Positions 5,601-31,787 are shown, counted from the first letter of the stretch. The stretch is DNA of 32,000 bases from Candidatus Saccharimonadota bacterium (GCA_965231145.1 OZ246420.1:270001-302000), one strand, 5' to 3'. The notes: generated by a model from the sequence alone, not told the origin. Program-made: numbers and translations.

Positions 5601-8209
5601 CGGGATTGACGAATGGAGTTACATATGCGTTCACTGTAAGTGCTTACAATGCAGTAGGAACAGGAACAGCAAGTAGTGCTTCAAATGACGTCATGCCTAT
5701 TACGGTGCCAACAGCTCCGATCAATGTCTCCGCGACATGAGGTAATCAGCAGGCGACGATCAGATTTACTTGATCGATAAATAACGGTGGAACCTGAATC
5801 TTGTATTATGTGGCAACATCAAACCCAGGAAACATATCATTTACCGGAACATGAAGTCCGATCACGGTAACGTGATTGACTAATGGAGTGAGCTATACAT
5901 TTACCGTCGCTGCAATAAATGGAGCGGGTACGGGAGTATTGAGCAGCTCATCAAATGCTGTAATTCCAGCAACAGTAGCAAACGCACCAACCAATATCAT
6001 AGCAACAGCAAGTAGCTGACAGGCGGTTGTGTCCTTTAGTGGATCGAGTGATGATGGATGATCGACAATCCTTTATTACGTAGCGACATCAAATCCAGGA
6101 AACATTAGTTTTACTGGTACATGAACTCCAATAATTATAGAATGATTGACCAATTGAGTGTCATATACGTTTACGGTAGCTGCAAGAAATGCAGTTGGAA
6201 CCGGAGCGGCGAGTGCTGCGTCAAGCAGCGTGACACCAGTAACGATGCCATGAGTACCATCAAACATCCAGGGAGCAGGAACGCTGGGGGAAGCAATATT
6301 TGATTTTGATGCACCAGTGTATAGCGGAGGATCTGCGTTACTGTATTATACGATTAGATCAAGCACATGACAGCTAGCAAAAACTGGAGTAAATAGTCCA
6401 ATGACACTAACATGACTCACCAATGGAGTAACATATACATTCTTTATCGCAGCAGTAAATGCGCAGTGAGAAGGAACAAGCGGGGCAGTAACATTTACTG
6501 TCACAACTCCAACCACTATTCCGAGTGAGCCTACGAATATCACAGCGATAGCATGAAGTTGATCAGCATTGCTCAGTTTCAGCACCCCGACTGATAATGG
6601 AGGATTACTTATTGATTATTACGCTATTAGATCATCTACAGGTGCTCTCATAAAGACAGGAGCAAATAGCCCAATAAGGATGACATGATTACAGAATGGA
6701 ATAAGTTATGCATTTAGCGTCTCAGCAGTAAATGGAGAGTGAGAAGGTCCTAGCGACACAGTAACGATAGAGCCGATTGCTCTTATTGTAAATGGTGGTA
6801 GCATAAGTGTTATACTATGATCTACAAGTATGATAGCAAATTGGACGACAACTATTAGAGCTTCAACACAAATCCAGTATGGTATTACGACATGATATAC
6901 ATTGCAGAATACGGAAAGAGACGTATCAAATCGTGTGACCTTACATAGTGGGAATATCCAATGATTGCTTACCTGTACAAAGTATAACTACAGAATTATT
7001 GGTTCAGATGATGAAGGATATCGCTATACAGGAACAAATAGCACATTCACCACGCTAGGCTGCCCAAACAATGCGCCAATTCTCACACAAGAAGAAGAGA
7101 TTGTAGAGGTGCCAGTAGGATGAGTGTTTACTATGACATCAACATTGGGAACGACGTTAGAGCTTATTATCCCTGAGGACGTAGTACTTATCATACCAAC
7201 CCTTCTCTTCCAATGAAAACAATTGGAAGCAAGTACCGCAATTGGTTCTCTTGGCAAGCCATCTAGTGAACTTATTCAGGTGTCAGCGCTCTATGATCTC
7301 CAAGCATATAGTGGGGATACAGATCGCATGACGACCTTTGAAACAGGTCTTACGATGACGTTGAGTTATCGTGATCAGGATGTGAGTTGAGTAGATGAAA
7401 GTACATTAAAAATCTACAGTCATGATGGAACAAGCTGGTCAGAACTTGATAACTGTGTGGTAGATACAGTCAATAAGAACGTTACATGTAATACATCACA
7501 TTTCTCAGCATTCTCCATCTTTGGAGTAGCACTAGGAGTAACGCCAAGTTCTCCATCAGTATGAGGAGGTGGTGGATGAGTGTATCTGACGAAGGATGTG
7601 TGTCCAAACGGAGATTACTCACTGAGCTACTATGACAAGACATGTAGTAGTGTATGACTACCAAACATTGAACAATGAATACTTCGCCTCGCGTTGAACA
7701 AATGTACAGCACAAAATGGCGAAGAGCAGCAATCATACTGCTTCAACCGCGCGATCGGCTCTACAACGATGCCTACATTCATGCAGGCACGTTACTACGA
7801 TCAGATCACGAGAGCGCAGCTGTCGAAGATCATGGGAGAGTTTGCAAAGAATATACTCTGAAAGACTCCAGATAAGAGTAAGCAATGTACGTTTACAGGA
7901 GAAGATCCGGACGGATTAGCAGCATATATGATCCAGGCATGTCAGTTAGGACTGATGAATACAAGCAGACCAAATGACATACTGACAAGAGGAGAGTATA
8001 TGACGGTGCTTTCAAGAATGTTATATGGTAAAACGCATGAACAGACGAATGTGGAAAGTGAAGAACATCCATTCTACGAGTATCATATGGAGCAGTTGTA
8101 TAAGGAATGATTGATCAATAGAAAAGAGCCACTAGTGAAAGCACAAAGACTTGTACCATTCTTGACGCTCTACAGACTCGCACAGAAGCTAGAAAAAGAA
8201 TCAAGATAA
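2..8209 (+). CDS. Giant secreted/cell-surface adhesin-like protein, 5'-partial (2,735 aa in window, table 25). Architecture: 3x [LamG/concanavalin-like lectin + FN3], SASA/SGNH-like esterase-like domain, 11 tandem FN3, two further beta-sandwich domains, Gly linker, Cys motif, SLH-like C-terminal repeats.
   Basis: I hand-translated frame 2 codon by codon from 2 to 8209. There is no TAA or TAG until TAA at 8207-8209, and roughly 95 in-frame TGA. The four plus-strand frame-2 ORFs in the supplied track (242, 977, 2171, 7928) all lie in this frame. LamG_3-like motifs are present (LDDVQLWDSVLTEAQI, MDDVEMWNSALTPAQI, VDNAEMWDSTLTPTQV), as are FN3 motifs (TDYQIEYK...TGL..N..YDFRV.A.N..GTG). A terminator follows immediately. 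Confidence 0.85.
2650..3810 (+). other. Domain of the giant protein: putative SASA/DUF303-type (SGNH-like) carbohydrate O-acetylesterase fold.
   Basis: The ordered motifs resemble the SASA family: HILSNGQSISVGY (GQSN-like nucleophile block), GVTIEHGEFDA (QGEsD-like block) and YGSDNLHLTNTGSKFLGEMLA (D..H block). This is motif-level recognition only. Confidence 0.4.
3821..6780 (+). repeat. Array of 11 tandem FN3 domain repeats inside the giant gene, period 267-273 nt (about 90 aa).
   Basis: Repeat starts (P-x-A-P-T-N-V) are at 3821, 4091, 4361, 4628, 4898, 5168, 5438, 5708, 5978, 6248 and 6521. The consensus is ..AP.NV.AT.SSGQA.VSFSGS.NSGGS.ILYY.ATS.PGNISFTGTGSPITVTGLTNGVSYTFTV.A.NA.GTG..S..SN.V.P. 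Confidence 0.9.
7562..8209 (+). other. C-terminal anchoring module of the giant protein: GGGGGG linker, CPNGDYSLSYYDKTC motif, then SLH-like repeats.
   Basis: The translation reads ...HFSAFSIFGV..VGGGGGGVYLTKDVCPNGDYSLSYYDKTC...YCFNRAIGSTTMPTFMQARYYDQITRAQLSKIMGEFAKNILG...AAYMIQACQLGLMNTSRPNDILTRGEYMTVLSRMLYG...EQLYKEGLI. The (a..Gl......itR.e...m..r) pattern resembles S-layer-homology-type wall-binding repeats. Confidence 0.45.
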
Positions 8210-8943: not shown

Positions 8944-8949
8944 TTCTGT

Positions 8950-8986
8950 ATTATATTGAGAATTTCGAATTCAACATTTCGAATTA
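8950..8986 (-). repeat. Stop-codon-abutting 37-nt conserved motif, copy A (after rlmN).
   Basis: The minus strand reads TAA TTCGAAAT GTTGAA TTCGAAAT TCTCAATATAAT. The TAA is the rlmN stop, and the terminator hairpin follows 6 nt later. Confidence 0.8.
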
Positions 8987-10165
8987 TTTTTTAAGTACTC
9001 TCAGGTTCTTCCCCGTCTCTTTAATCTCTTCACGATGTTCATATACTTTTTCATATCCCAGCTGACCGCAGGCACCTTTGACTCAGCGTCCGAGTGTATC
9101 TCTGACGGTTACCGTCACTCATCCTTTTTCAAGGATCTCTTTAAATCTCATGATCTGGTTTCTGCTTGGCTCTTCGAGGTCGATAGCGGGGTTTTCGTTG
9201 TATGGGATAAGATTGATATGTGAGTGAGCAGGTCTTGCTTTGAGGAGGTCTATGAGCTGATATGCGAGTTCTGGCTGGTCAGTCTTTCCCTTGATCATAA
9301 TGTACTCATAGAACACGCTCTTGCCTGTCTTTGTCGTATATTCATCGATCTGTGCCATGAGCTTGTCTAACGTGTACATCTTCGTGATCGTTGGGATAAG
9401 CTCGGAGCGGAGCTCCTGATTTGGTGCGTGGAGTGACAATGCAAGCATGACATCAAGATTGTCATCGATCATCTTTTGTATACCAGGAATAATTCCGCTG
9501 GTAGAGATGGTTACGTGACGACGTGAAAGTGAAAATCCGTTTTGGTCGAGGAGATAGTGTACAGTAGCTTTTACATTGTCATAGTTGAGGAGTGGTTCTC
9601 CCATACCCATGAAGACGATATTTCTGATCATGTACCATGAGTTGTCTTCTTTTTTGCCGAGCTTCTTTTTGAGGTATGCGTTTGCATAGATAACCTGTCC
9701 GATGATTGTTTGGACATCGAGGTTTTTGAGGAGTCCAAGTTTCCCCGTTACGCAGAAGATACATCCAACTGAACATCCTACTTGTGACGAGATACATAAG
9801 GTGAGACGGTTGAGTTTTTTACCGTCAACGAGGGTTGTGAACCCTTTCTTATATTCTTCTGATCCTTCGATAATTTCATGATAGTGGAACATAATTACTG
9901 ATTCGATCACGTTGCCGTCAGGGAGCTTGAAAAGAAACTTCGTTGTGTCTTCAGACTCCTGCATTTCCTGGAGCTCAAAAGGCACAATAGTGAAATTGTC
10001 CGACAATGAATCTCTCAGGTCTTTGCTGAGGGCAGTCATCTCTTGGAAATCAGTCACAGAGTTTTTAAAGATTTCGTGAAAAATCTGTTTCAGACGAAAT
10101 GGCTGAACCTTATGCAGAACTCTTCGTTCTTCTAATTTCTCTTTATCAAAAATAGAGGCTTTCAT
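8984..10165 (-). CDS. rlmN: 23S rRNA/tRNA adenine-C2 methyltransferase RlmN (radical SAM), 393 aa.
   Basis: Radical-SAM CxxxCxxC is present in GCSVGCIFCVTG, with MGMGEPLLNY also present. Reading through TGA at 9119 and 9083 recovers the conserved C-terminus VTVRDTLGRGVKGACGQLGYE (family pattern vR...G.di.AACGQL). The true stop is TAA at 8984-8986. Confidence 0.85.
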
Positions 10166-11305: not shown

Positions 11306-13780
11306 CTATTTGGTAATCAGTCCCTTTTCTACTAAGAACTTTGCAAGATCTCCGAAGAGTCTACCTGCAGTATATTCACCGTACTGATTTGTTCTTGGTC
11401 TACGAACGTGGATGACGACAATATATTTCAAATCATCCCTTGTAACCATGCCTACGAATGAACCATCTGTCCATCCATTTCCGTTCATATACTTTCCTTT
11501 GAAGGCAATCTGAGATGTTCCTGTTTTTCCACCTATCGTATAACCTGGGATCCCGTACATTTTTGTAAGCCCTCCATAGACGTCCTGAAAGAGAACTTCT
11601 CTGATTTTCTCACTCGTTTCTGGTTTGATAATCTGGTTTCCAACCTTAGGAGTATTCACAATATATTGCTTCGTCACGGGATCATAAATCTTATCTATGA
11701 TCGTTGGCTTTACGATATATCCGCCATTTACCAGCGCGCTATAACCTGCAGCAATCTGTACTGGTGTCGCAAGCATACCTTGTCCGAACGCATTATTATA
11801 GAATTGAGAAAGCGGGATGTTGTTTGGGCCTTCGATCTTACCCTGTGTTTCACCGGCAAGCTCTATACCTGTCTGCTTACCAAATCCAAACTTATCCATA
11901 AAGTTATAGAATACTTCTTTTCCTATTTTCTGAGCGATTCTTACCATTCCCACGTTACATGAGTAGACTACTGCATTTATCAGCGGATGAAATCCGCCGC
12001 AGTGTTTTTTGTCTGCGTTATTAATAAGCTGAACCACGCCATTTCCAATATCGAGTTTCAACTGATTGTTATCTTGGTAGTAGTCATAAAGACTTACTTC
12101 ATCGCTATCGAGACCAAAGGCCATCGTAAATGGTTTGATGATCGAACCTGGTTCGTATGGCTGCGCAATGTTTTTGTCGATAAATACCTGAGCTCCCATC
12201 TTATTTGCAGCGACATATTTTTGTAGTGATGGATCTTTTCTCTGGTCATATGTTGTCGGTATGATTTTTTCTCCCGAGAGGAAGAAGACTGGAATATCTC
12301 TATAGGTGTCGTCGTTTATAATAGTACTTTCAGTAAGGCTTAATGGCTTCAGTTTATATGCTTCCTGATAGTTGTTTGGATTAAAGGTTGGATAGTTCGC
12401 CGATGCTATGATCTTACCATTGTGAGGATCCATGATGATGGTAGATATTTCGTCAGCGTTGAATATCTTTGTATAGTATTCTTGTAGTTGCTCAAGCTTC
12501 CTCTGGATGAGAGGATCTATCGTAAGATAGACATCACGTCCATCGATAGGCTGTGTGATAGCAATATCATTTGATGCGATTTGTCCGAGGAGCGGCGTAG
12601 AAAGTCATTGTATTTCTCCTGCTTTTCCTTTGAGAAGCTCATCGAAATATTGTTCTATGCCATAGAGAGCATAGCCATCTTTTGCGTAAAACCCCAATAT
12701 GTTTGCTGCGAAGTGATTGTAAGGGTAGTATCTTGTTTCGTATTTTTCCAATCCAAGACCATGCAGTAGGGGAATGCCTTTAACGCAGTTTTCTCCTGCA
12801 TTTTCACACGTGTTTTTCACGTTATAGTTAGCATTGATGAGGTCATTGATCTTTTTCGCGAGCGTAGCATTGAGCCCATCAGCGAGCTTTACGTATCTGT
12901 TTTCCTGTTGGACAAATAAGTTAGAGATCTGTTTTTCTGAATATGCATAACTGTATTTCATGAGGATCGAGTTGATCTCTTTTTTCGCATTGACGACGTT
13001 GATTGCTTTAGGTGGTACGACATAGACGTAGTGTTTGCTTTCGATGCTTACGTATGGCAAATTCATCCCTGAGAGGTCTGCAAGAAACTGATCATTTTCA
13101 AAGTAACCGAGATAGTTTTTTTCCTTCACTCCAATGGAAATCTTATTGTCCAGGGTCGCTTTGATCATGTTCATGGCTTGATCTCCTGAGAAGGCATTGA
13201 TGATTTTCGTCCTTTCCTGGTCGATGATGCTATTTTCTTCGACGATCTGTTGCTGCATAAGATCAATTCCTGTTTGTGACCGATAGTTCTCTCCAATCTC
13301 TTGTGTATAGAAGACCGTCTTTGGAGCAGGGAGGATCTGTAGCTGAGCAAAGCGTTCAATGTTTTCTATACAACCAAGTTTATCTACATCTACTAGTCCA
13401 TTTTTTTCACACAGGTGCGCATAGATAATCGGAGAGAGGATATCTATAACTCTTGGTTTGTCCCAGACAAACTTCGGATCGATAAAGACGTTGTACATTT
13501 CCATGTTTTGGGTGAGAGCGATGGGTTTATTGCTTGCATCAGTAAGATAGATATTTCCTCTCTTCGCTTTGATGTTTGTTTTATTGAAATGCTGTGCAGT
13601 CATCACATCGCTATAGTTTTTCGCCTGTATGATCTGCAGATAGAATAGTCTGATGGTAAGTACAAGAAAAAGAAAAGAAAGGATCCATAAAAGCTGAGCT
13701 TCTCTGGTGATTTTTCTTTTACCAAGACCGAATTTTTCTAGTATCTTATGAGCGAGCTTATTTTTTTTCTCTAATAGCAT
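11306..13780 (-). CDS. Class B penicillin-binding protein (FtsI/PBP2-type peptidoglycan transpeptidase), 824 aa.
   Basis: An N-terminal TM helix (LLWILSFLFLVLTIRLFYL) and RGNIYLTD are present. The transpeptidase motifs are SIIK (SxxK), SCN (SxN) and KTGT. ORFs 12605..13780 and 11306..12433 are in frame and joined through TGA at 12605-12607 (…GEIQ-G-LSTPLLG…DVYLTIDPLIQ). Confidence 0.85.
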
Positions 13781-13897
13781 TTGTGAGCGATTTAGTGATA
13801 TGGTGAAGTTATATGAAAATAGTCGGGGTTTACAAATAATTTCCTCAATAATAGAGGAGTAAAATCAAAAATTATGATCTGATATAATGTATGTTTT

Positions 13898-14094
13898 ACT
13901 CCTGCCGGAGGGGCGTTACTTTTTAGCATATCCCTAAAAAGTAACCAAAAAGGTCTAGCCGATTGTAGCACTCTAATATGTGTAACAATCAAGCATTGAC
14001 TACGAAAGCATTTCGTCCTCACGAACTCAATGCTTTACGACAAACTACTTATCCATACACGACTCCGGAGACGTGGGGTACAATCGGCGGGAGT
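13898..14094. ncRNA. Candidate structured RNA element, copy 1 (unclassified; paralogous to 26208..26398).
   Basis: Closing stem ACTCCTG/CGGGAGT (13898-13904 with 14088-14094). Perfect 12-bp hairpin GTTACTTTTTAG/CTAAAAAGTAAC (13915-13945). 9-bp stem CCGATTGTA/TACAATCGG (13959-67 with 14079-87). Conserved core hairpin AAGCATTGA..ACGAAAgcaTTTCGT..TCAATGCTT (13991-14035). The strand is undetermined; an extended -10 (TGATATAAT at 13880-13888) favours plus. Confidence 0.5.
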
Positions 14095-14108: not shown

Positions 14109-14165
14109 AAAAAACTCGGTACTTACCGAGCTTATTATATAATAAAAAAATCGGCGGATGCCGAC
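14109..14165 (-). terminator. Two tandem rho-independent terminators after the small membrane protein gene.
   Basis: The minus strand reads gtcggcatccgccgattttttt (14144-14165) and gctcggtaagtaccgagtttttt (14109-14132). Confidence 0.75.
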
Positions 14166-15252: not shown

Positions 15253-15342
15253 TCTTAAAAATCAGAAAGGTTGAATGTTAAATGATAAATACCTTATTGT
15301 ATTTCACATTTAAAATTATTTTTTAGTTTGTAAGTGTATGAG

Positions 15343-20384: not shown

Positions 20385-21236
20385 ATGTATAAGTATTTGA
20401 AAGTTATTGTCGCAACATGAATTATCTCTACTGCTCTCTATTCTATAGCATTTGCTTATGATCTGACGGCTCATGACACCAATCTTGTCTGGCAGCTCAA
20501 TCAGGAAGTAGATAAAGCTATCCAGAGTACTGAAAGATCTCCTGTCTTCATCGAGAAAGCAGCATCAAAATTTAGTACCCTTGTGGATAGCCTGTCGGCT
20601 GATCCTAGAAAAAGGGCAATTATGAAAAATGTCTTTGAACACACGCACAATCAGCTTGTGCTCGCTACGGATACAAGTGTCCGTGCATTTAAGCAGGCGT
20701 TTGTGAACAAATATATAGATAATCTTCAGGGTGATGCCTTTGAGCTCAGGCTCCAGTGGTGTGTCCAGAAATTTGATATGGTAAATACGATTGCCAAGAA
20801 ATATGATGTTCCACCAGCTCTTATCCTTGCAACATGGTTTATGGAAGCAAGTTGTAGACAGGCAAACCCAGATAATAAAAATGGTATCTTCCAGATTACC
20901 TCTCACTACTATGAGCCAGGACCTATTGATGATGCTGAGCTTGAAGAGCAGATCATCGACTTCATAGAGTTCTCTCGTGCAAAGTGGAGCTGGTATCACA
21001 AGAGTAATCCAGATCGTCAAATAACACTTACCTATAAGAAGTGGGATCTTGAAAGTCTTGAGACTCAGGGAGCCCTCTACAATAGCGTGGGTAGTAGTAT
21101 CAATGCATGGCCACTGAGAGCTACGAACCAATACTATAACTGGGGCAATTTCTCTCCAGAGTGGAGATCGAGTGTAAAAGATGGTATGATAACTGCATTT
21201 GTGAGACTCTTAAATTGGGAACTACAGAACAGATAA
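20385..21236 (+). CDS. Lytic transglycosylase / lysozyme-like protein with N-terminal signal anchor, 283 aa.
   Basis: The N-terminus MYKYLKVIVAT-G-IISTALYSIAFA is recovered through TGA at 20418. The SLT-like catalytic block is LILATWFMEASCRQANPDNKNGIFQIT (family pattern E-S....GlmQi). Confidence 0.55.
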
Positions 21237-21270
21237 TTCGAAATGTTGAATTCGAAATTCTAAATATAAT
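21234..21270 (+). repeat. Stop-codon-abutting 37-nt conserved motif, copy B (after the transglycosylase-like gene).
   Basis: The sequence is TAA TTCGAAAT GTTGAA TTCGAAAT TCTAAATATAAT. It differs from copy A at one position and is followed by a terminator hairpin. Confidence 0.8.
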
Positions 21271-21275
21271 ATAGT

Positions 21276-21308
21276 AAAAAAACTGAGAGCGTTAGCTCCA
21301 GTTTTTTT
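21276..21308. terminator. Bidirectional terminator between the transglycosylase-like gene and murD.
   Basis: The sequence aaaaaaACTGaGAGCgttaGCTCcCAGTttttttt forms a stem with one mismatch, flanked by A and T runs. Confidence 0.7.
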
Positions 21309-21333
21309 ATATTTAATATTCAACATTTAACAT

Positions 21334-22584
21334 TTATAATTGCTGTACCGCGTGAATGAATTGATGTGCGCGGTCGAGGTAGTCTTTGAACATGTCAAAG
21401 CTGGCGCAGCCAGGGCTCATGAGAATCACATTGATATTATTATTCTTAGCGTACTCATAGGCAAGAGAAACAGCTTCTTCCATAGTTTTTGCATTGGTAT
21501 GTGCTATGCCTTGCTTCTTCGCGATCTCGGTAAATTGAGGAGCAGTAGTACCGATAAATACTCCATAGCCAAGAGTCTGCTTCATAAGATCTCCGAGTTT
21601 GCTGAAGTTATCTCCTTTGTCTGAGCCTCATGCAATAAGTACAATAGGCCCAGGGAAAGCTTCGAGTGCAACATTCAAAGCCTGTGAACTTGTTGCTTTG
21701 CTGTCATCATAGAACTTGATGCCAGATTTCTCAGCAATAAGCTGGATCCTATGATCGAGGGGCTTGATGCTGTTCATCGTCGCATGGATGATATCATCAG
21801 ATACCGAATGGATATCGCTGAGAACTGCTTTTGCTACAAGGTAGCATACTTCAAGATTCCCGGCGTTATGCTTGCCGACAAAGTGCGTATTGTCGAGTGG
21901 GTAGTCATTTCCATACATGGTGATAGGTATGGCATGAGTCAGATCGACATGGTGTTCATGGAGGATGTCCATGACACCAGGCGTTATGAACGCCTGTTTA
22001 TTGGTATGTTGTATGAGAAGATATTTTGTTGCTACATAGTCTGCCATGTCTGGATGCCAGTTGAGGTGGTCTGGCGAGAGATTTGTCCATACGCTGTAGT
22101 CAAAGCGCATATCTTTTAGTCCATAGAGGAGAAATGATGAAAGCTCCGTTACGATGATATGCTTTTTGTTCGTAAGCTCTTTATCGAGGATATGATTGAG
22201 CGTCGTTGCGATAGACTCATCGAAATTTCCGCTCAGCCAGAGATGATGATCGGGGAGGAGTCATTTGAGTAGGTTATACAATACGTGACAGGTTGTTGAT
22301 TTGCCATCGGTTCCCGTAACTCCGATAAATGACAGGTTATCTTTCCATGGCTGTTTCTCGAGAAGCTGGCCAATAAAATTGAGCTCTGAGATAGTCTTGT
22401 GGCCGTATTTTACATAGATATCGCTGTCGGGCTTTACCGCCTGGTGTACAATAATCTGATCGGCTGTATCAAATAGTTCTTCATCCCGAGCATTATAATC
22501 GATACTTTTTGACTCAATCTTAAAGTGTCTGAGTAGCTTCTGAAGTGGAACTCCGATTTTCCCTTGGCCAAAGATTGCGATCAT
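21334..22584 (-). CDS. murD: UDP-N-acetylmuramoylalanine--D-glutamate ligase MurD, 416 aa.
   Basis: GVTGTDGKSTT is the P-loop. DHLNWH, KHNAGN and LIA-G-GSDKGDNF are also present. Three track ORFs share one frame and are joined by TGA at 22261 and 21628. Confidence 0.85.
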
Positions 22585-22625
22585 ACCTTAAAGTTTATAA
22601 AGTTAAAGGTTCATAAAGTTGAAAG

Positions 22626-23390
22626 TTATTCGTAATTATAGGTCTCAAGATCAAGGCGAGAAACATCATAGAGTATTTTCTTTTCAAGGTTATACCAGCA
22701 GTTTTCATAGATGTTCTTCTTGTTTTCCAGGTTGAAGAAGTTCTTTTGCATCATATATGCAGCATGCTTCATCATGACTCATGGATAGCAAAATAAGACC
22801 CAATCTTGTCTGTCTTTTATATAATCATTTTGATGAAAGCTAATCATTCACTTTATGCCTAGATAGATCATGAGGTGTTCTTCTAGAAAGAAATGGATCT
22901 GATTTTCGTCCAATGCTTTACCAAAGAGTTGAGCATCTTCGAGCATATATTTCTGAAATAATTTGTCTTTATCATAGATCTTTCTTAATTCTCTTAGCAT
23001 TTCTGGAAATTGTAGTCCTCACTTTATATCAAGATAGAGCTGATTTCGAACTCCAAATGAAAAGAAGCCTTCTGAATATTTCTTATTTCTTTTTAATAGC
23101 TTAATAAAACCATTTTTATGTTCTATCTCTAATTGCATATATTTGTTTTTTACTTCGCTGGTAGAGGCTTGATTGTAAAGATAGAGAAAATCTGTGTAAC
23201 TGAAATGAGCGCCTATGCCATTGTCTATTCTTTGGGTGTCAGGCTTATTTCAAAAGATTTCTATATGCTCAAAGCACTTTCCCGGCAATTGTTTTGTCTG
23301 AATATTGCTGATAGAAATGCCAAACCATAGTAATCACATGCCTTTTGGCATGTTCCCTATATCAAAAAACTGATTAGTAGCTGGAGCCAT
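22626..23390 (-). CDS. Hypothetical protein, 254 aa (visible only under table 25).
   Basis: My hand translation runs from ATG at 23390 to TAA at 22626 with five in-frame TGA and no TAA or TAG. The sequence is MAPATNQFFDIGNMPKGM-G-LLWFG...LDLETYNYE. I recognise no family. Confidence 0.5.
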
Positions 23391-23422
23391 AAGAAGCCCT
23401 TATGATTAAATGCTTTGAGTAT

Positions 23423-23455
23423 AAAAAAACTCCCGCCTGTTGCAAGGTAGGAGTT
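23423..23455 (-). terminator. Rho-independent terminator downstream of gyrA.
   Basis: The minus strand reads aactcctaccttgcaacaggcgggagttttttt, an 11-position stem with one mismatch and one wobble, followed by a T-run. Confidence 0.7.
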
Positions 23456-23459
23456 CCTT

Positions 23460-23496
23460 ATTATATTGAGAATTTCGCATTTAGAATTTCGAACTA
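23460..23496 (-). repeat. Stop-codon-abutting 37-nt conserved motif, copy C (after gyrA).
   Basis: The minus strand reads TAG TTCGAAAT TCTAAA TGCGAAAT TCTCAATATAAT. The length and register match copies A and B, and the TAG is the gyrA stop. Confidence 0.75.
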
Positions 23497-26016
23497 TTCC
23501 TCGTCACTTTGAGCTTCTTCATCGGCTTTCTTTTCAGCCTTAGTTTCTGCTTTTCTTTCTTCTTTCCATGCGGTGTTTTCTGCTTTTTCTTCCCATGGTC
23601 TGTAGATCGTTTCGATAGTTCCTGTGACGATCTTTTCCATAGGAGTATCCGGCATATCGAGGAGTACCTTATCTGAGTGGATAGTCTTGAGTTCTCCTGT
23701 AGTGAGTTTAATTCTTACTGAACCTTCCACCATAGCGATACCACCGGTAATCTTATCTTTACCTTCGATCTCAGCTACCTGAACGATCTTTCCACCACGC
23801 TTACCAAACTGAGATTTGCCGAACTTGAGATCTTCAAGTGCTATCATCTTCGCAGCGTTAGTACCATTGATAAGGATAAATGGCTCGTTCTTATAGATGA
23901 ACATAGCCGCCGGTCCATCACTTTCGTCCTCCACAGAGATAGCTTTTACGCCTGCAGCAGTTTTACCCATAGGGCGACATTGCTCTTCAGGGAAGAGAGA
24001 AAGGTATCCTTTTTGTGACAGTACTCCAATCTTGTCCTGGTCTCTCACTGCTTCCACTGCGATGATCTTCTCTTTGTCCGCGAGGGTCATGACTGTTGTA
24101 GGGAATTTCTTGAATGAGAGTAACAGTTCTTTTTTAATTTTTTTGAGACTGTTCTGATTTGAAAGGAATACGAGCTCTTTGTAATCATGGAGCATAGAAC
24201 TACAGAAGATCACATTTCCCTTGAGATTCCATTGTTCTTTTGGATCAACGGCAGGGGATTTCATGTTATGAGAGCCGATGTCCTTGAGTCTTTGGATAAC
24301 AAGTTCTCCTTTGTCTGTGATGACGATCAATTTATCTTGGTTATGTGTGTAGACAAGTTCGATCGTATCTTCAGGAAGAACATTTACTCTTGACTGGTAG
24401 AGAATGCGGAACGAATGATCAGCGCCGATCCAGAGGATCACATCTTCTTTTTTAGCATCTTCCTGCTTGAGCAGCTCTTTCATGCTTCCTGAGAGATTTG
24501 CGGCCCCGCCGTCGCCAACAAGCTCTGTTCTTCTTTCATCGCCATACGTTTTCTTCATATATTTCATTTCATCCGTCACCACTTTATCGAGTTTCTTTGG
24601 ATCATTGATGATACCTTCAAGATATTCGATAAGCTTCTTTTTCTCATCCATTTCATCCAAGATCTTCTGGATTTCAAGACCCACGAGGGATTGGAGTCTC
24701 ATCTGGAGGATATATTCCGCTTGAACATCTGAGAACTCAAACTTCTTTCCCATAAGTTTATCCTTCGCTTCCTGCTTATCATTTGAATGTCTAATAGCAT
24801 GGATTACATCATCCAAGATATCAAGCGCACGCTTCAAACCTTCGAGGATGTGCATCCTGTCTTTTGCCTTTCCGAGCTGGAATACAGATCTTCTGTAAAC
24901 AACTTGTCTTCTGAAGTCAGTAAACTCAAGTAAGAGATCCTTGATGTTAAGGAGTCTTGGCTGCATACCTTTTTCTACGAGCGTTACATTATTGATGTTG
25001 AAATTTGTCTGTAGCTCTGTGTACTTAAAGATTTTTGTGAGCACCGCATTTGCATCAACTCCTTTTCTCAAAGTGATACTTACTCTCATTCTTACTCTGT
25101 TAGACTCATCACGGATGTCTGTAACACCATCGATCTTCTTGTCTACCACGAGTTCTCCGATCTTCGCTACAAGCGAAGATTTATTTACCTGGTAAGGTAT
25201 TTCATCTATAACGATAATTTTTCCGTTTTTCCCTTCTTCAATATGTGTTTTCCCTCTCACGGTAATACCACCTTTTCCTGTTTCGTATACTTTCTTGATG
25301 TTCTCTCTGTCATACATAAGACCTCCAGTAGGGAAGTCAGGACCTTTGATAATTTCCATGATATCATCTATCGTTGCATCTGGGTTATCCATCAGCAGCA
25401 AACACGCATCAATAACCTCAGTAAGATTATGTGGTGCCATATTTGTTGCCATACCTACAGCGATACCCATCGTACCATTACAGAGGTGATTTGGAAATTT
25501 CGTTGGCATCATGATCGGCTCCTGACGAGACTGATCATAATTTTCTCTCCAGTCTACTGTATCTTGATCGATATCTTCGATCATCTCTTCAGCAATCTTT
25601 GTCAGTCTCGCTTCCGTATATCTCATTGCAGCGGCGCCGTCTCCATCGATAGAACCATAGTTACCTTGTCCATCAACGAGGGGATACCTCAAAGAAAATG
25701 GTTGAGCAAGTCTTACCATAGCATCGTATACAGAGGAGTCTCCATGGGGATGGTACTTTGCCAGTACTTCACCGACTACTGCTGCAGACTTTCTATACTT
25801 AGCATTGTGCATAAGTCCGATGTCGTACATCGCGTAGAGGATACGTCTGATCACTGGTTTCATACCATCTCTTGTGTCTGGAAGTGCACGAGAAACGATA
25901 ACCGACATCGCATAGTCGATATATGACTGAGTGATTTCTTTTTCGATCGAATGAGGAGTATTGTTTTGTACTATCTCCACTGGTTCATTTTGTTCTTTTT
26001 CTTTCTTTTCAGCCAT
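23494..26016 (-). CDS. gyrA: DNA gyrase subunit A, 840 aa.
   Basis: This is an intact ORF. It carries [20 protein letters not shown] and the active-site [10 protein letters not shown], plus a C-terminal beta-pinwheel region and an acidic/lysine tail. It contains no in-frame TGA. Confidence 0.95.
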
Positions 26017-26063: not shown

Positions 26064-26091
26064 ACTATAGAGATTTAGTATGTGTTTGCAA
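26064..26091 (-). promoter_or_regulatory. Candidate sigma70-type promoter for gyrA.
   Basis: The minus strand reads TTGCAA-16 nt-TATAGT, about 50 nt upstream of the gyrA ATG. This is sequence resemblance only. Confidence 0.3.
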
Positions 26092-26207
26092 CTGGTAATT
26101 GCGATAAAATAATAGCTTATAAAAGCCATTTTTAGCGTTTTTCATTGTATGAAAAACTCTAGCAGCGGCGACAGAATTTTACTTGTTATGCTTATATTAT
26201 GAGATGG

Positions 26208-26398
26208 TCTTTTTTCGCCTTCTACGGGACCTACTTTTGCCCCGTATTTACTACGGGGCCCAAAAGTAGGCAAAAGCGCTCTTCACCGATTTTAGCGCAT
26301 AACATGCCAGAGAAACGATTAAGCATTGACTATGAAAGCATCTCGTCCTCACAACTCAATGCTTAATGAAGGATTAGTTATTTACGTGCGGAGTAAGA
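26208..26398. ncRNA. Candidate structured RNA element, copy 2 (paralog of 13898..14094).
   Basis: Closing stem TCTTTTTTCGC/GCGGAGTAAGA (26208-18 with 26388-98). Hairpin CCTACTTTTG..CAAAAGTAGG with inner stem CCCCGT/ACGGGG (26230-26270). Conserved CAAAAG and CCGATT spacers. Core AAGCATTGACTATGAAAGCATCTCGTCCTCACAACTCAATGCTT (26321-26364), nearly identical to copy 1. Confidence 0.5.
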
Positions 26399-26409
26399 TT
26401 TTTTCTACG

Positions 26410-26433
26410 AAAAACTCGACCATAGGCCGAGCT
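26410..26433 (-). terminator. Rho-independent terminator after the acidic hypothetical gene.
   Basis: The minus strand reads gctcggcctatggtcgagtttttcg. Its sequence resembles the 14109-14132 hairpin (aagCTCGG...CCGAGttttt). Confidence 0.7.
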
Positions 26434-26459
26434 TGCATAATGTTATGGAGAATTGTATG

Positions 26460-27023
26460 TTACAGTTGACTGTATAAGTCATCGAGTTTTTCTTCTTTTT
26501 CGGCTTCAGCTTGCTGTACAGCGACTTGGTTTTCTGCGCTACTGACGACGAGTTTTCGTCTGTTGAGACGACTCTCGCGCTGAGCGAGGATAGCTTCTTT
26601 TTCTTTCTCATCTTCCTGGATAAGGATCTGGAGATTCATTTGTTCCTCGACATAGATCTCAAAGAGTCTGAGAAGCTGGAAGCCCCAAAGTTCTGATACT
26701 TTTTTCACTACTACCTGATCTCCGCTTTGTACAGAGATGACAAAATCTGGATCATCTTTATCTGTGTTGTTATCAAAAACCCCATCAGAACTGAATGAAG
26801 CTGCAACTAACTGGATAAGAACATCTCGATCAAAGTCATCCTTGATCTCTTCAGGAACGAGATATTTCATGGCTGGGAAGAGGCTTACGTACTCTTTGTA
26901 CCAGTTTTGATCTTTAATGTCTCCCTGCACAGGACCAAATAACTTTTCGTATTTTTCCACAGTCTCTTTCTTTTCATCTTTTTCTCTGAGCTCTGCTACA
27001 TACGCTTGAAAATCAAACAGCAT
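26460..27023 (-). CDS. Hypothetical acidic protein, 187 aa.
   Basis: This is an intact ORF ending at TAA, with Glu/Lys-rich termini. I recognise no family. Confidence 0.5.
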   Translation of the reverse strand: MLFDFQAYVAELREKDEKKETVEKYEKLFGPVQGDIKDQNWYKEYVSLFPAMKYLVPEEIKDDFDRDVLIQLVAASFSSDGVFDNNTDKDDPDFVISVQSGDQVVVKKVSELWGFQLLRLFEIYVEEQMNLQILIQEDEKEKEAILAQRESRLNRRKLVVSSAENQVAVQQAEAEKEEKLDDLYSQL

Positions 27024-28772: not shown

Positions 28773-31700
28773 TTATAGAATAGAACGAAGTCTTTCGATG
28801 CCCATCGGATTGAGCTGTCTTTCTATGGTCCCGATCGTTACTGTATGTTCGCCCGGATGATCCTTAATGATCTGCGCAAGAGTCTGGAGGAGAGATGGAT
28901 TGTCCGGTAAACTAAACTGCATTGGTCACATTGCCTCTTCTCCGCTAGCAGCTCCCGATGGAGTAGATTGAGCTTCACCGTTTCACATATCATTGTTTTC
29001 AGGATTGCCCGAATTGCTATCGTCCTGATCTGTTTCATCTTCATCTGTGAGTCCATCCGGAATCGTATCGGTATGCTCAATCTGAATAACTTCTCCTGTT
29101 TCTACATCTACCATTTCATCTTCCAGATCATTATTTAACGACAGGATGTTCATACCAAGTCTTGTTGTCTTCACTTCACTCACTGATTCATTGTTAAATT
29201 TGCCAGCTTTCTTCGCGTCTTCGGTAATTCTTTCAAGTGATGTCTTGACGATCTTACTGACTTTAAGCGACCTGTTTTTCCATCCCTCGATAATGAGTAT
29301 GTCAAATTTCTGTAGATCTAACGTCTCTTTCATAAATATTTCTATCTCATCAGAAAGGTCTTCGACCGAAATGAAGTATCATTTCTTTTTTGCTCTCTGG
29401 ATATTTTTGACATAACATAAGATCTTCACATTTCCAAAGGGTTGCTCTTTATCATAGTATTTGAACATACTGATAAGCGAAAAGCTTCCTTTGATGAATG
29501 GATATAAACCATCGAAAGGATGACCCGATACAAATGTTTTAAATACTTCATATTCCGTCAATAGTCTTTCCATCTTTGTGCTTTCTTCTGTCTTGGCGAG
29601 TTGCAGCGCGGGCTTTACTGAAGCCATGGCAAAGAGACTATTACTTGCGCTTTCCGATGAAGACATTTTTGTCCAGTCGATGATGCGCGCAATGTTATGG
29701 AGGATCGTTTTACGATCCATAAAACCGTTGAATGCACCAGCTTTTGCAAGTGACTCTATCGTTTTTTTATTGATGACGCCTGCACATCTCGTGAGAAAAT
29801 CTTCAAGTGACGTGTATGGTCCATTTTTGCTTCTTTCATTTTCGATCGTTTCTCCTACTTCGCTTCCGACTCCTTTTATACACTGAAATCATAGTCTGAT
29901 AGTGTCATCAATCGCAGCAACGTGAGTGAATGAATCATTGACATGAGGAGGAAGTACACGGTATCCTTGGAGCTGTAGTTCATTGATGAACTTGCTGAGC
30001 TTTTCCGTGTCTTCTTCTACCGATCTCAGGAGGGCAGCATTAAATTCGATAGGGTAATTTGCTTTCAAATATGCTGTCTGATACGAAAGCATTCCATAGG
30101 TCACTGAGTGCGACTTATTGAATGAGTAGAACGCAGCTGGTTCAATCATCTTCTCATAGACCCATCTTGAAGTCTCTTCTTTATAGTTTCTGAACGTCGC
30201 AGCTTTTTCGATAAACTGACCTTTAATCTGCTCGATAACCTCCTTAATTTTCTTACCGATACCGCGTCTGAGATTGTCCGCTTCTGCAAGTGAAAATCAT
30301 GCCATGGCTTGAACCAAGAACATGAGCTGCTCCTGATAGACGGCAATACCATAGGTGAGGCCAAGGATCGGATCAAGATCTTCTGTGAGTTTTCTTTGTT
30401 CTTCTAACGCGGTTTCTTCATCGTACTTTCCAATGAGCAGATCATAGAGTTCAGGGAGCATGTATTCAATTGGCTCTTTCCCATGCTTTCTGTCAATATA
30501 TCTTGGAATAAATTCCATAGGTCCTGGACGATACAGCGCACCCATCGCGATAATATCGTTTACGTCAGTTGGCTTTAGTTTTACCAAGAAATTTCTAATA
30601 CCATCTCATTCAAACTGAAATACTCATGATGTATCTCCTTTCTGTAACACTCTTTCAAAGGTGTTCTTATCGTCGAGCGCAGGCTCAAACACCATCGTAC
30701 GGAAATAATCTTCAAATAATTTCGGCAGCTTCTTGCCGGCTTTTGTATATTTTGCTTTCACGATCTTCATCGTGTTTTTAATAAGCGTCAGCGTTCTGAG
30801 GCCCAGGAAGTCCATCTTCAAAAGACCAATGTCTTCAAGGTCGTGTCATTCGTATTGAGTTACTAATTGTTTATGTACTTCTTCGCCTGCCTTCCCTTGT
30901 GGCTTTGGAGGATGCTGTACCGGCGCAAAGTGAGTGATGACGTCAGGTGCAATAATGATACCACATGCATGTACACCAGTTCCTCTTACCGTACCTTCGA
31001 GTTTGATCGCTTCGTCAAAAGTCTTCTTTAAGATAGGATCGTTGTCATACATGTTTTTGAGATCTTCCATCTGGTCGATAGACTCTTTGATGGTCTTTTG
31101 TGTAATGAGCGATGCGATGAAATTTGATCTGTCGAACGGTACGCCCATGGTTCTTGCAACGTCTTTAAACGCAGCACGTGCAGCCATGGTCATGTATGTT
31201 CCGATATGTGCAACTTTGTCTTTCCCGTATTTGTCTGCAACGTATTCTACTACCTTGTCTCTCTGTACGTCTTCGAAGTCGACGTCGATATCGGGCATAG
31301 ATACACGAGCAGGATTGAGAAATCTTTCGAAGAGGAGACCGTATGGAATAGGATCTACGTCGGTGATCCCTGTACAATATGCCATGAGAGAACCCGCAGC
31401 AGAACCACGACCTGGACCCACAGAAATATTGTTGTTCTTAGCCCGATTGATAAAGTCCTGTACGATAAGGAAGTATGTGTTATATCCCATTTCCTTTACC
31501 ACTTTGAGTTCATACTCTAAACGTTCGATATAACTTCCTATCGTTAGCTCGCCGTAAAATGTATTTGCATGTTTTTCAATAAACGTTTTTTTATTGTCAG
31601 TGTATGTTGCTCTTGTGAGTTCTCTGAGTTCTTCCGGTGTCGTTTCTGTCAGTTTTTTTACAAGCGTACCTGCAGAGGTAATTTCTACCATATCTAAAAG

Positions 31701-31787
31701 ATCTTGGTCTGACCAATGATTTTGTTGAAATCTTCTTCTCATGCCTGCGTAGGACAAATAACGCAGCTCAAATTCAAAAATATCCAT
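28773..31787 (-). CDS. dnaE: DNA polymerase III alpha subunit (DnaE), 1,004 aa. The ORF begins after the position of the PHP domain.
   Basis: Family motifs: YFLIVQDFINRAK, VGPGRGSAAGSLMAYCTGITDVDP, LLFERFLNPARVSMPDIDVDF, GVHACGIII, TQYE-G-HD..LLKMDFLGLRTL, TS-G-VFQFE-G-DG, AMA-G-FSLAEADNLRRGIGKK, FNKSHS and IRL-G-FQCIKGVG. Eight in-frame TGA all fall in one frame. TAG lies immediately upstream of the ATG at 31787, and the stop is TAA at 28773-28775. Confidence 0.9.

What the first reader, a model, noticed from the sequence alone, without database searches (positions are those of the whole stretch)
26208..26436. Copy 2 of the structured element: compensatory changes support RNA-level selection
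Comparison with copy 1:
- The closing stem changes completely (ACTCCTG/CGGGAGT becomes TCTTTTTTCGC/GCGGAGTAAGA) but still pairs.
- The second hairpin keeps TACTTTT/AAAAGTA while its flanks covary (GT..AC becomes CC..GG) and gains an inner CCCCGT/ACGGGG stem.
- The single-stranded CAAAAG and CCGATT spacers and the 45-nt core are conserved.

Both copies sit just beyond a similar terminator hairpin (aagCTCGG..CCGAGttttt) of the preceding minus-strand gene. Both are preceded on the plus strand by a -10-like box (TGATATAAT in copy 1, TATTAT in copy 2). Copy 2 is followed on the plus strand by TTTTTT right after the closing stem. A separate gyrA promoter candidate lies downstream, so this is probably not the gyrA leader. 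Two diverged but structure-preserving copies in 12 kb suggest a functional sRNA or cis-element family.
Basis: seen in the sequence. Interest (0 to 1): 0.7.

Follow-up and report, generated by a model that had tools for sequence, protein, structure and literature searches.

The report
Lineage-specific structured intergenic repeat element
A roughly 200-base, hairpin-rich sequence sits in two diverged copies between genes of an uncultured SR1 (Absconditabacterales) bacterium and is missing from its relatives; it is probably a young small-RNA gene family or a small mobile repeat, matches no described RNA family, and has no known function.

Summary
Copy 2 (26208-26404, plus a hairpin at 26415-31) and copy 1 (13898-14094) share paired ends (P1), a hairpin (H2) with compensatory changes, two short spacers and a 45-nt core that is about 90% identical.

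The genome reads UGA as glycine (code 25, Absconditabacterales). Six syntenic relatives lack the element at both sites where their contigs cover them, so it is an insertion. The conserved gyrA and PBP promoters lie between the element and those genes, so it is not their leader.

A sister strain has an ortholog of copy 1. It keeps P1, H2 and the spacers, but a different GC-rich three-hairpin centre replaces the core. The core is therefore not universally conserved, and gene conversion could explain its similarity between copies 1 and 2.

Across the three sequences, 5 of 12 H2 pairs covary and none breaks. All G·U pairs fall on the + strand, and P1 is more stable on the + strand in all three.

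There was no Rfam, phage, plasmid, genome or metagenome match, and no further copy in 185 kb. No target-site duplication was found.

Best reading: a + strand sRNA of about 200 nt (confidence 0.4). Main rival: a MITE-like selfish repeat (0.27). Interest is modest.

The parts
26208..26218 (+). Copy 2, P1 5' arm (TCTTTTTTCGC).
   Evidence: Read. Pairs with 26388-26398 (10 of 11 pairs, 2 of them G·U). Duplex energy -11.7 kcal/mol on the + strand and -5.6 on the - strand. The insertion boundary relative to L002/L003 falls within 3-4 nt of 26208.
26230..26270 (+). Copy 2, hairpin H2 (CCTACTTTTG ... CAAAAGTAGG), with a nested GC-rich palindromic module at its apex.
   Evidence: The outer pairs covary with copy 1 and strain S (and the alignments).
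26240..26258 (.). 19-nt palindromic module CCCCGT-ATTTACT-ACGGGG.
   Evidence: Found only here and, in inverted orientation, in the 3' arm of H2 of strain S (L046:111-129).
26271..26291 (+). Conserved spacers CAAAAG (26271-26276) and CCGATT (26286-26291).
   Evidence: Invariant between copies. Also present in strain S as CAAAAAGGTCTAG and CCGATTGTAG.
26321..26364 (+). Copy 2 core: 9-bp stem AAGCATTGA/TCAATGCTT enclosing a 26-nt loop (CTATGAAAGCATCTCGTCCTCACAAC).
   Evidence: Repeat families D7 and D10. The arms are unique to the two copies. Differs from copy 1 by 2 transitions and 1 single-base indel. Replaced by a different domain in strain S.
26388..26404 (+). Copy 2, P1 3' arm GCGGAGTAAGA (26388-26398) followed by T6 (26399-26404).
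26415..26459 (.). Hairpin CTCGACC-ATA-GGCCGAG (26415-26431) plus 28 nt up to the stop codon of ORF 26460-27023. On the minus strand it reads hairpin + T5, a terminator for that ORF.
   Evidence: Absent from L002 and L003, where the host sequence follows the stop codon directly. It therefore arrived with copy 2. It resembles the hairpin next to copy 1 (AAGCTCGG..CGAGTTTTT).
26193..26200 (+). -10-like TATATTAT upstream of copy 2.
   Evidence: Lies in sequence homologous to L002/L003. The consensus promoter scan did not call it.
26064..26091 (-). Context: host gyrA promoter TTGCAA-16-TATAGT, located between the element and gyrA.
   Evidence: Conserved in L002/L003, which lack the element.
13898..14094 (+). 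Copy 1, whole element. P1 arms 13898-13908 and 14084-14094; H2 13915-13945; spacers 13946-13953 and 13959-13964; core 13991-14035; extra hairpin 14061-14076.
   Evidence: Its insertion boundaries relative to L002 coincide with the P1 arms. An ortholog is present in strain S.
13880..13888 (+). Extended -10 TGATATAAT, ending 9 nt before P1 of copy 1.
   Evidence: The TGATA part is host-homologous and the rest lies at the junction. Strain S has the weaker TGGTATCTT at this position.
14115..14130 (.). Hairpin CTCGGTACTTACCGAG next to copy 1, terminator-like on both strands.
   Evidence: Belongs to the host: L002 has a covarying hairpin (CTCTGCA..TGCAGAG) at the same place without the element. Deleted in strain S.

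Best explanation
The element is a young, lineage-specific family of structured small-RNA genes read from the + strand. Each copy lies in the gap between the terminator of one minus-strand gene and the promoter of the next.

Proposed mechanism (inferred):
- Transcription starts a few bases after a -10 box.
- It yields an RNA of about 190-270 nt whose 5' and 3' ends pair (P1).
- The RNA also carries hairpin H2, short A-rich and CCGAUU single-stranded spacers, and a variable central domain.
- In the two window copies, that central domain is a 9-bp stem presenting a 26-27-nt loop (GAAAGCAUYUCGUCCUCAC).

Proposed history (inferred):
- The family entered this lineage after its split from the nearest sequenced relatives.
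- It first landed at the pilin/PBP site.
- It was then copied, together with the adjacent terminator hairpin, to the site upstream of gyrA.
- Since then it has evolved by indels, by insertion of small palindromic modules at loops and bulges, and probably by exchange between copies.

Shown: presence/absence among relatives, insertion boundaries, pairing-preserving substitutions, the strand asymmetry of G·U pairs, and position outside the flanking mRNAs. Inferred: transcription, RNA ends, and any trans-acting role.
For: - Position. The conserved promoters of gyrA (alignment) and of PBP (alignments) lie downstream of the element on the minus strand. Terminators of the upstream genes lie before it. 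Minus-strand transcription is therefore not expected, and a + strand unit fits.
- H2 pairing is kept through change. Across copy 1, strain S and copy 2, pairs 1, 2, 3, 10 and 11 of 12 change (G-C/C-G; U-A/U·G/C-G; U-A/C-G; U-A/G-C; A-U/G-C) with no broken pair on the + strand (sequences; folds).
- Strand asymmetry. Every non-Watson-Crick pair in P1 and H2, apart from one strand-symmetric T·T mismatch in copy 2's P1, is G·U on the + strand, which would be C·A on the minus strand. The P1 duplex is more stable on + in all three sequences: -20.0 vs -16.6, -11.7 vs -5.6 and -12.3 vs -9.7 kcal/mol. Whole-element z-scores are slightly better on + in all three.
- Promoter. A perfect extended -10 (TGATATAAT) ends 9 nt before P1 of copy 1. 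A -10-like box sits at the same distance in copy 2.
- Constraint. Between the window and sister strain S, the 5' domain is 41/47 identical. The flanking host intergenic DNA is clearly less conserved, roughly 65-70% by eye.
- The unit duplicated to the gyrA site runs from the 5' end of P1 to just past the hairpin, which is the size of the predicted transcript.
Against: - No expression data are available.
- The -10 of copy 2 pre-exists in relatives that lack the element. Copy 1's -10 is degraded in strain S to TGGTATCTT.
- The + strand 'terminators' have poor U-tracts (CTTATTAT, CTTGCATA). Only copy 2 has a U-run after P1.
- The global fold is not conserved (structure conservation index 0.2-0.33).
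- The 45-nt core is replaced in strain S. Its 90% identity between the two window copies could therefore come from gene conversion rather than selection.
- The element is absent from all six syntenic relatives where covered, so it is dispensable at the clade level.
- Five structure-preserving changes in H2 between strains about 93% identical is fast. This could reflect palindrome-templated correction or exchange with paralogs rather than selection on an RNA.
- No complementary target was found in the window. Shine-Dalgarno motifs are rare upstream of the window's genes, which weakens an anti-SD seed model.
Confidence: 0.4

Rival explanations
1. The element is a MITE-like or REP-like non-autonomous selfish DNA element. 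It is a short palindrome-rich repeat with inverted termini that inserts into intergenic DNA near terminators. It persists and diversifies by recombination between copies. Its hairpins matter at the DNA (or single-stranded DNA) level, and any transcription is incidental.
For: - Presence/absence polymorphism: six syntenic relatives lack it where their contigs cover the sites.
- Copy 1's insertion boundaries coincide with its 11-bp inverted termini.
- It is multi-copy, modular and mosaic. Copy 1 and S share the 5' domain, copies 1 and 2 share the core, and copy 2 and S share a 19-nt palindromic module in opposite orientations and at different positions.
- Strain S has gained further GC-rich hairpins with identical stems (CCCTCTCC/GGAGAGGG, twice).
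- It lies next to terminators, as Correia, ERIC, BIME and RUP elements do (own knowledge).
- The fast 'compensatory' change fits palindrome-templated repair.
Against: - No target-site duplication at either copy (p = 0.07 and 0.96 against shuffles).
- The terminal repeats are the least conserved part between copies rather than the best conserved.
- Only two copies were found in about 51 kb of this genome, and none in 185 kb of held sequence beyond the known three.
- The copies are old and diverged.
- Copy 2's inserted unit extends about 60 nt beyond the terminal repeat and carries a host-type terminator, which is not what terminus-defined transposition would give.
- No transposase or related IS end is known. 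No phage or plasmid match.
- The G·U strand bias is unexplained by a DNA-only model.
Confidence: 0.27
2. The element is neutral debris. A piece of foreign or rearranged DNA was inserted once and duplicated segmentally. It has no function, and its apparent conservation comes from recent gene conversion between the copies and from the intrinsic persistence of palindromes.
For: - The core is not conserved in the orthologous strain S copy.
- The global fold is not conserved.
- Promoter and terminator signals are weak.
- The element is dispensable in relatives.
Against: - The 5' domain is more conserved between strains than the flanking intergenic DNA.
- Eleven or so substitutions in H2 across three sequences all preserve pairing.
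- P1 is re-established by new outer pairs in copy 2 and in S.
- A 1.1-Mb streamlined genome (contig length) rarely keeps 200-290 nt of junk at two sites.
Confidence: 0.15
3. The element is a minus-strand cis-regulatory RNA: a leader or riboswitch of gyrA and of the PBP gene, or a structured 3' UTR of the upstream genes.
For: Both copies lie upstream of essential minus-strand genes. Both strands fold well. A mini-ORF preceded by GAGGA (ATG CTT TCR TAG) sits in the core loop on the minus strand in both copies (for the motif; read).
Against: - The conserved host promoters lie downstream of the element, so it is not in either 5' UTR.
- Terminator hairpins with T-runs precede it.
- On the minus strand the non-canonical pairs become C·A mismatches and P1 is weaker.
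- Relatives regulate the same genes without it.
- No Rfam riboswitch or leader match.
Confidence: 0.04
4. The element encodes a small protein.
For: Short ORFs overlap both copies on both strands.
Against: - A 1-nt indel inside the core shifts the frame between copies.
- Peptide similarity ends where the nucleotide core ends.
- There is no shared start codon.
- None of these ORFs is present in the 15-billion-protein collection.
Confidence: 0.02

Closest known systems
Sibling (multicopy) base-pairing sRNAs, e.g. LhrC1-5 of Listeria (PMC5880928) and NgncR_162/163 of Neisseria (PMC9973317)
   Same: Several diverged paralogs sit in intergenic regions of one genome. A short, highly conserved segment is presented in a loop while the rest diverges. 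The loop is CU-rich (UCGUCCUCAC), like the CU-rich loops LhrC4 uses to pair with Shine-Dalgarno regions (PMC5880928). Each copy is an independent unit ending at a hairpin.
   Different: No expression or target is known. The element is longer (about 200-270 nt) and multi-branched, with paired ends. The conserved loop is missing from the strain S ortholog. Shine-Dalgarno motifs are rare in this genome's genes. There is no sequence homology to these sRNAs.
Bacterial MITEs and mosaic intergenic repeats (Correia/NEMIS, ERIC, RUP, BOX, REP/BIME); comparison from own knowledge
   Same: Size of 100-300 bp, inverted termini, intergenic location near terminators, presence/absence between close relatives, modular or mosaic variants, folding into stable RNA hairpins when transcribed, and the ability to create or carry promoters.
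   Different: No target-site duplication. The termini are poorly conserved between copies. Copy number is very low in the sequence available. No cognate transposase is known. One copy moved together with flanking host sequence.
Mobile GC-rich palindromic clusters of AT-rich genomes (yeast mitochondrial GC clusters, Rickettsia palindromic elements); comparison from own knowledge
   Same: The 19-nt CCCCGT-loop-ACGGGG module and the CCCTCTCC/GGAGAGGG hairpins are GC-rich palindromes. They appear at different places and in different orientations inside an AT-rich host sequence.
   Different: They are much shorter than Rickettsia palindromic elements. They were seen only inside this element family. 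Mobility is inferred from two occurrences only.
Bacterial class C group II introns (insert just after terminator hairpins); comparison from own knowledge
   Same: On the minus strand both copies begin 13-15 nt after a terminator-like hairpin plus T-run.
   Different: The element is far too short. It has no GUGYG 5' end, no domain V and no Rfam intron hit. The hairpin next to copy 2 arrived with the element rather than being its target.

Membership tests
Any Rfam 15 family (riboswitches, leaders, 6S, SRP, RNase P, tmRNA, ribozymes, group II intron domains, HEARO and others) | Covariance-model score at or above the family's gathering threshold. | tested here: not met
   No hit at gathering score in the whole window. 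Permissive scans of both copies and of the strain S loci gave only chance-level hits far below threshold. No tRNA or tmRNA was found.
Independent sRNA gene (+ strand) | Own promoter placed so that transcription starts at the element. | tested here: inconclusive
   Copy 1 has a perfect extended -10 TGATATAAT ending 9 nt before P1. Copy 2 has only TATATT/TATTAT, in pre-existing host sequence. Strain S has TGGTATCTT. The consensus scan calls none of them because there is no -35.
Independent sRNA gene (+ strand) | Intrinsic terminator or defined 3' end on the same strand. | tested here: inconclusive
   Copy 1's hairpin at 14115-14130 is called terminator-like on the + strand with tail CTTATTATAT. 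Nothing is called for copy 2. T6 directly follows P1 only in copy 2.
Independent sRNA gene (+ strand) | Base pairs maintained by compensatory change. | tested here: met
   In H2, 5 of 12 pairs covary across three sequences with no broken pair. P1 is retained through G·U pairs and new outer pairs. The sample is only three sequences and the alignment was made by hand.
Independent sRNA gene (+ strand) | Detected transcript. | not testable with these tools
   No transcriptome data are accessible.
MITE (non-autonomous DNA transposon) | Terminal inverted repeats at the exact insertion boundaries. | tested here: inconclusive
   Met for copy 1: 11-bp arms at the boundaries relative to L002. Not met for copy 2, whose insertion extends about 60 nt past the 3' arm.
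MITE (non-autonomous DNA transposon) | Target-site duplication flanking the element. | tested here: not met
   Flank-to-flank local alignments are no better than shuffles (p = 0.07 and 0.96).
MITE (non-autonomous DNA transposon) | Many similar copies, and a parent IS with matching ends. | tested here: inconclusive
   Only two copies were found in about 51 kb of this genome and none elsewhere in 185 kb held. The rest of the 1.1-Mb genome could not be read, and no transposase lies in the window.
5' leader or riboswitch of gyrA / PBP (minus strand) | Lies between the gene's promoter and its start codon. | tested here: not met
   The gyrA promoter at 26091-26064 and the PBP promoter lie downstream of the element. 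Both are conserved in relatives without the element.
Class C group II intron or fragment | GUGYG 5' end, domain V, and insertion after a pre-existing terminator. | tested here: not met
   No intron model hit. The ends read ACUCC.../...GGAGU. Copy 2's adjacent hairpin is absent from the empty sites.
Small protein gene | Reading frame conserved between copies. | tested here: not met
   A frame-shifting indel lies in the core, and there is no shared start codon. The ORFs are absent from the protein collection.

The most novel reading that the evidence does not exclude
The element is a self-propagating structured RNA gene. The unit copied to the gyrA site runs from the predicted transcription start (5' end of P1) to just past the terminator hairpin, which is transcript-sized. 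This would fit RNA-mediated (retroposition-like) duplication of an sRNA in an ultra-small CPR genome. The RNA would additionally act as a landing pad for tiny GC-rich palindromic modules that insert in either orientation at its loops.
Probability: 0.07. Interest if true: 0.7.

Novelty: new member of a known kind. Interest (0 to 1): 0.35.

Why it matters
Almost nothing is known about non-coding RNAs or small mobile repeats in Absconditabacterales (SR1), a code-25 lineage of episymbiotic or predatory ultra-small bacteria with genomes of about 1 Mb. If it is transcribed, this would be a lineage-specific sRNA family caught shortly after birth. Its empty sites, a duplicated sibling and a rapidly remodelled ortholog are all visible, which makes it a useful case for how new sRNA genes arise and diversify. 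If it is selfish DNA, it shows that streamlined CPR genomes still host palindromic repeat elements, and that these supply terminators and possibly promoters next to essential genes (gyrA, ftsI-like PBP). Either way the find is local: three sequences, one species-level lineage and no functional link.

Tried and rejected
Searches for more copies:
1. Exact and degenerate core patterns in genome contigs and metagenome contigs. Result: nothing, or GC-rich chance hits.
2. Viral contigs with four patterns. Result: only chance matches.
3. BLAST and nhmmer for further copies in syntenic loci of six relatives and in about 19 kb of extra flanks of the same genome. Result: none.
4. Phage and plasmid collections. 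Result: none.
5. A protein search with the FN3 repeats of the giant surface protein, hoping to reach paralogs elsewhere in this genome. It returned unrelated FN3 proteins and wasted a search.
6. Looking for spurious ORFs over the element in the protein collection as a route to more copies. Result: absent.

Hypotheses tested and dropped:
7. Structure conservation index from MAFFT alignments. It is low because the stems are out of register, so it was not used as positive evidence.
8. Target-site duplication test. Negative.
9. Search for a complementary target of the core loop in the window. None found.
10. Anti-Shine-Dalgarno seed idea. Weakened because Shine-Dalgarno motifs are rare upstream of the window's genes.
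11. 6S, SRP, RNase P, tmRNA, Y RNA, retron msr/msd, ribozymes, DGR template/variable repeats and DnaA boxes were considered by eye and rejected. Reasons: defining motifs lacking, no Rfam hit, no adjacent reverse transcriptase, and differences that are not adenine-specific.
12. A covariance model was not built. MAFFT could not place the H2 arms in register, and too little searchable sequence was left to make it worthwhile.

Full report
**Setting.** The window comes from an Absconditabacterales (SR1) bacterium that reads UGA as a sense codon.
- With TGA read through, fragmented ORFs fuse into whole genes: a 2736-codon surface protein, an 870-codon open frame holding the PBP gene, and DnaE.
- In DnaE alignments, the TGA codons of relatives face glycine in the window in 54 of 73 non-TGA cases. 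This indicates code 25.
- GyrA's best hits are uncultured SR1/Absconditabacterales proteins.
- The same strain occurs in Logan assemblies ERR4405439-41 and ERR7850080. It also occurs on a 1,107,293-bp contig.

**The observation.** Reading the sequence and aligning the two loci confirms two homologous elements. Copy 1 spans 13898-14094. Copy 2 spans 26208-26404, followed by a hairpin at 26415-26431. Both have the following parts:
- Paired ends (P1). Copy 1: ACTCCTGCCGG/TCGGCGGGAGT. Copy 2: TCTTTTTTCGC/GCGGAGTAAGA.
- A G-rich joiner.
- A perfect hairpin H2.
- The spacers CAAAA(A)G and CCGATT.
- A core made of a 9-bp stem (AAGCATTGA/TCAATGCTT) around a 26-27-nt loop.

The core is about 90% identical between copies, whereas the copies as wholes are only 62-63% identical at aligned positions. 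The stem arms occur nowhere else in the window. Each copy folds far better than its shuffles, but on both strands.

The 3' arms share CGG(G)AGT. Copy 2's 5' arm differs mainly by C-to-T changes that leave G·U pairs, and four new outer pairs are added. The overall architecture is not conserved, with a structure conservation index of 0.2-0.33 on sequence alignments.

**What it is not.**
- No Rfam family matches, at gathering thresholds or permissively. No tRNA or tmRNA was found.
- It is not coding. An indel in the core shifts the frame, and peptide similarity ends with the nucleotide core.
- It is not the leader of gyrA or of the PBP gene. The gyrA promoter TTGCAA-16-TATAGT (26091-26064, minus strand) and the PBP promoter are conserved in relatives and lie between the element and the genes. 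Terminator hairpins of the upstream genes precede the element on the minus strand.

**It is an insertion.** I fetched the syntenic region of six relatives. Their GyrA identities are 94, 88, 84, 76, 75 and 71% (loci L002, L003, L001, L041, L042, L043). The gyrA DNA identities of the three closest are 85, 80 and 78%.
- Wherever their contigs cover the two sites, the relatives lack the element there, and none has it anywhere else in the 13-22 kb fetched for each.
- At the pilin/PBP site, the filled and empty sites differ exactly by the stretch bounded by the P1 arms. The neighbouring hairpin CTCGGTA..TACCGAG is host sequence, because L002 has a covarying hairpin there.
- At the gyrA site, the inserted stretch runs from the 5' arm of P1 (about 26208) to the stop codon of ORF 26460-27023. 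It therefore includes a CTCGG..CGAG + T5 hairpin and 28 nt that L002/L003 lack. The old terminator further downstream has decayed.
- This hairpin and about 15 nt beyond it resemble the host hairpin beside copy 1. Copy 2 therefore most likely arose by copying a segment of the copy-1 locus, not by terminus-defined transposition.
- No target-site duplication is detectable at either copy.

**A third member.** A sister strain (Logan SRR24524665) has an identical pilin protein and 93% DNA identity there. It carries an ortholog of copy 1, split over two contigs, L045 and L046. The join rests on a 7-nt overlap and is therefore uncertain.
- It keeps the inner P1 stem (CUGCCG/CGGCGG), the joiner, H2, CAAAAAGGTCTAG and CCGATTGTAG.
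- This 5' domain is 41/47 identical to copy 1. The surrounding host intergenic DNA is clearly less conserved, roughly 65-70%.
- In place of the 45-nt core it has three GC-rich hairpins, two of them with identical stems (CCCTCTCC/GGAGAGGG). Only faint traces of the core remain (AAGC..AAGCA..CCUCAC).
- It also has a 19-nt insertion between the spacers.
- A CCCCGT-loop-ACG(T)GG module sits in the 3' arm of H2. The same module sits at the apex of H2 in copy 2, with its loop inverted.

The family is thus mosaic, and the core is not universally conserved. Gene conversion between copies 1 and 2 is a live alternative to purifying selection for the core's 90% identity.

**Evidence for structure-level constraint and for the strand.** The H2 stems of the three sequences were laid side by side by hand.

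| H2 pair | Copy 1 | Strain S | Copy 2 |
|---|---|---|---|
| 1 | G-C | G-C | C-G |
| 2 | U-A | U·G | C-G |
| 3 | U-A | C-G | U-A |
| 10 | U-A | U-A | G-C |
| 11 | A-U | G-C | replaced by the module stem |

- The other pairs are invariant, and no pair is broken on the + strand.
- P1 is re-formed in copy 2 and in S by different outer pairs (TCTT/AAGA, TTCT/AGAA).
- Apart from one strand-symmetric T·T mismatch in copy 2's P1, every non-canonical pair in P1 and H2 is G·U on the + strand. Each of these would be a C·A mismatch on the minus strand.
- Accordingly, the P1 duplex is more stable on the + strand in all three sequences: -20.0/-16.6, -11.7/-5.6 and -12.3/-9.7 kcal/mol.
- Whole-element z-scores also lean to the + strand.
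- These are few and partly non-independent events, perhaps four or five. The strand call is therefore suggestive, not proven.
- Five pairing-preserving changes in H2 between strains only about 7% apart is fast. This is also what palindrome-templated correction or exchange with unseen paralogs would give.

**Transcription signals.**
- Copy 1 is preceded by a perfect extended -10 (TGATATAAT, 13880-13888), 9 nt before P1. This box is partly host sequence and partly junction, and it is weaker in strain S (TGGTATCTT).
- Copy 2's TATATT/TATTAT lies at the same distance from P1 but in pre-existing host sequence.
- No -35 is present, and the consensus scan calls neither box.
- On the + strand the downstream hairpins have poor U-tracts. 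Only copy 2 has T6 right after P1.

**Search for more members.** The following all failed:
- Pattern scans of the genome, metagenome and viral collections.
- BLAST/nhmmer over 185 kb of held loci.
- Phage and plasmid BLAST.

The family is so far confined to this species-level lineage: two paralogs and one ortholog.

**Interpretation.** The most economical reading is a young, lineage-specific, + strand structured sRNA gene family, or "sibling sRNAs" (confidence 0.4). It was born by insertion at the pilin/PBP site and duplicated as a transcript-sized unit to the gyrA site. It is now diversifying by indels, module insertions at loops and bulges, and exchange between copies. Its loop (GAAAGCAUYUCGUCCUCAC) resembles the CU-rich seed loops of LhrC-type sRNAs (PMC5880928). 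However, Shine-Dalgarno motifs are rare in this genome's genes and no target lies in the window, so the target mechanism remains open.

The main rival is a MITE-like or REP-like selfish palindromic repeat (confidence 0.27). It is favoured by the presence/absence pattern, the inverted termini at copy 1's boundaries and the mosaicism. It is disfavoured by the lack of target-site duplications, the poorly conserved termini, the low copy number, the co-transfer of flanking sequence and the G·U strand bias. The two readings are not exclusive, since Correia-type elements are both mobile and transcribed.

Neutral debris (0.15), a minus-strand leader (0.04) and a small protein (0.02) are less likely.

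**Verdict.** The feature is real and the description mostly accurate. The RNA-level interpretation is plausible but unproven, and the "conserved core" argument is weakened by the sister-strain ortholog. It is a new, small, local family of a known general kind, and interest is modest.

Noticed in passing
whole window; e.g. 12605-12607 (in-frame TGA inside the PBP gene), 28773-31787: UGA is a sense codon. Table-11 ORF lists fragment most genes. With TGA read through, a 2736-codon surface protein (2-8209, running off the window start), an 870-codon open frame holding the PBP gene (11306-13915) and DnaE (28773-31787) become whole. In DnaE alignments, TGA faces Gly (54 of 73), which indicates code 25.
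   Followed up: yes
8944-8997 (+), 23454-23498 (+), 21223-21274 (inverted), weaker at 21300-21344 and 15263-15325: A second repeat family of about 45-52 nt (…TATTATATTGAGAATTTCGAATTCAACATTTCGAATTATT…) with two TTCGAA palindromes. Read on the opposite strand it ends in TATAAT. It sits in intergenic gaps just upstream of minus-strand genes (after RlmN, after gyrA), and once faces antisense into murD. It may be a shared promoter/operator module or a terminator.
   Followed up: partly
26240-26258; L046:111-129: A 19-nt GC-rich palindrome CCCCGT-ATTTACT-ACGGGG occurs at the apex of H2 in copy 2. It also occurs, with its loop inverted and at a different position (the 3' arm of H2), in the sister strain's copy-1 ortholog, and nowhere else in 185 kb. 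It may be a tiny mobile hairpin or a product of template switching.
   Followed up: partly
L045:870-939 + L046:1-60 (strain S): The sister strain's element carries two hairpins with identical GC-rich stems (CCCTCTCC/GGAGAGGG). They flank a third hairpin (GGGTGAGGT/ACCTCACCC) whose loop contains the perfect palindrome GCTTATAAGC. The Logan contigs break exactly there, so the junction is uncertain.
   Followed up: partly
3794-6442 and 599-2622: The giant surface-protein gene contains ten tandem 270-nt units (FN3 domains, 61-73% identical) and three units of about 918 nt (LamG-like plus FN3). The FN3 part resembles proteins from many phyla.
   Followed up: no
about 21000-23500: Cumulative GC skew peaks near 22-23 kb, and gene orientation switches from mostly + to all - there. 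This is terminus-like or simply a convergent gene boundary. The two element copies lie on either side in the same orientation.
   Followed up: no
13935 and about 13927-13933: Several Logan contigs of the same strain end inside hairpin H2 of copy 1, which is a 31-nt near-palindrome equal to the assembler's k-mer length. The break is an assembly artefact rather than a sign of extra copies.
   Followed up: yes
26142-26175 (minus strand): The ancestral terminator of ORF 26460-27023 is intact in L002 as CTCTAGCAGTTGCTAGAG + T6. In the window it survives only as a degraded hairpin (TTCTGTCGCCGCTGCTAGAG + T5). It was apparently superseded by the terminator hairpin that arrived with copy 2.
   Followed up: partly
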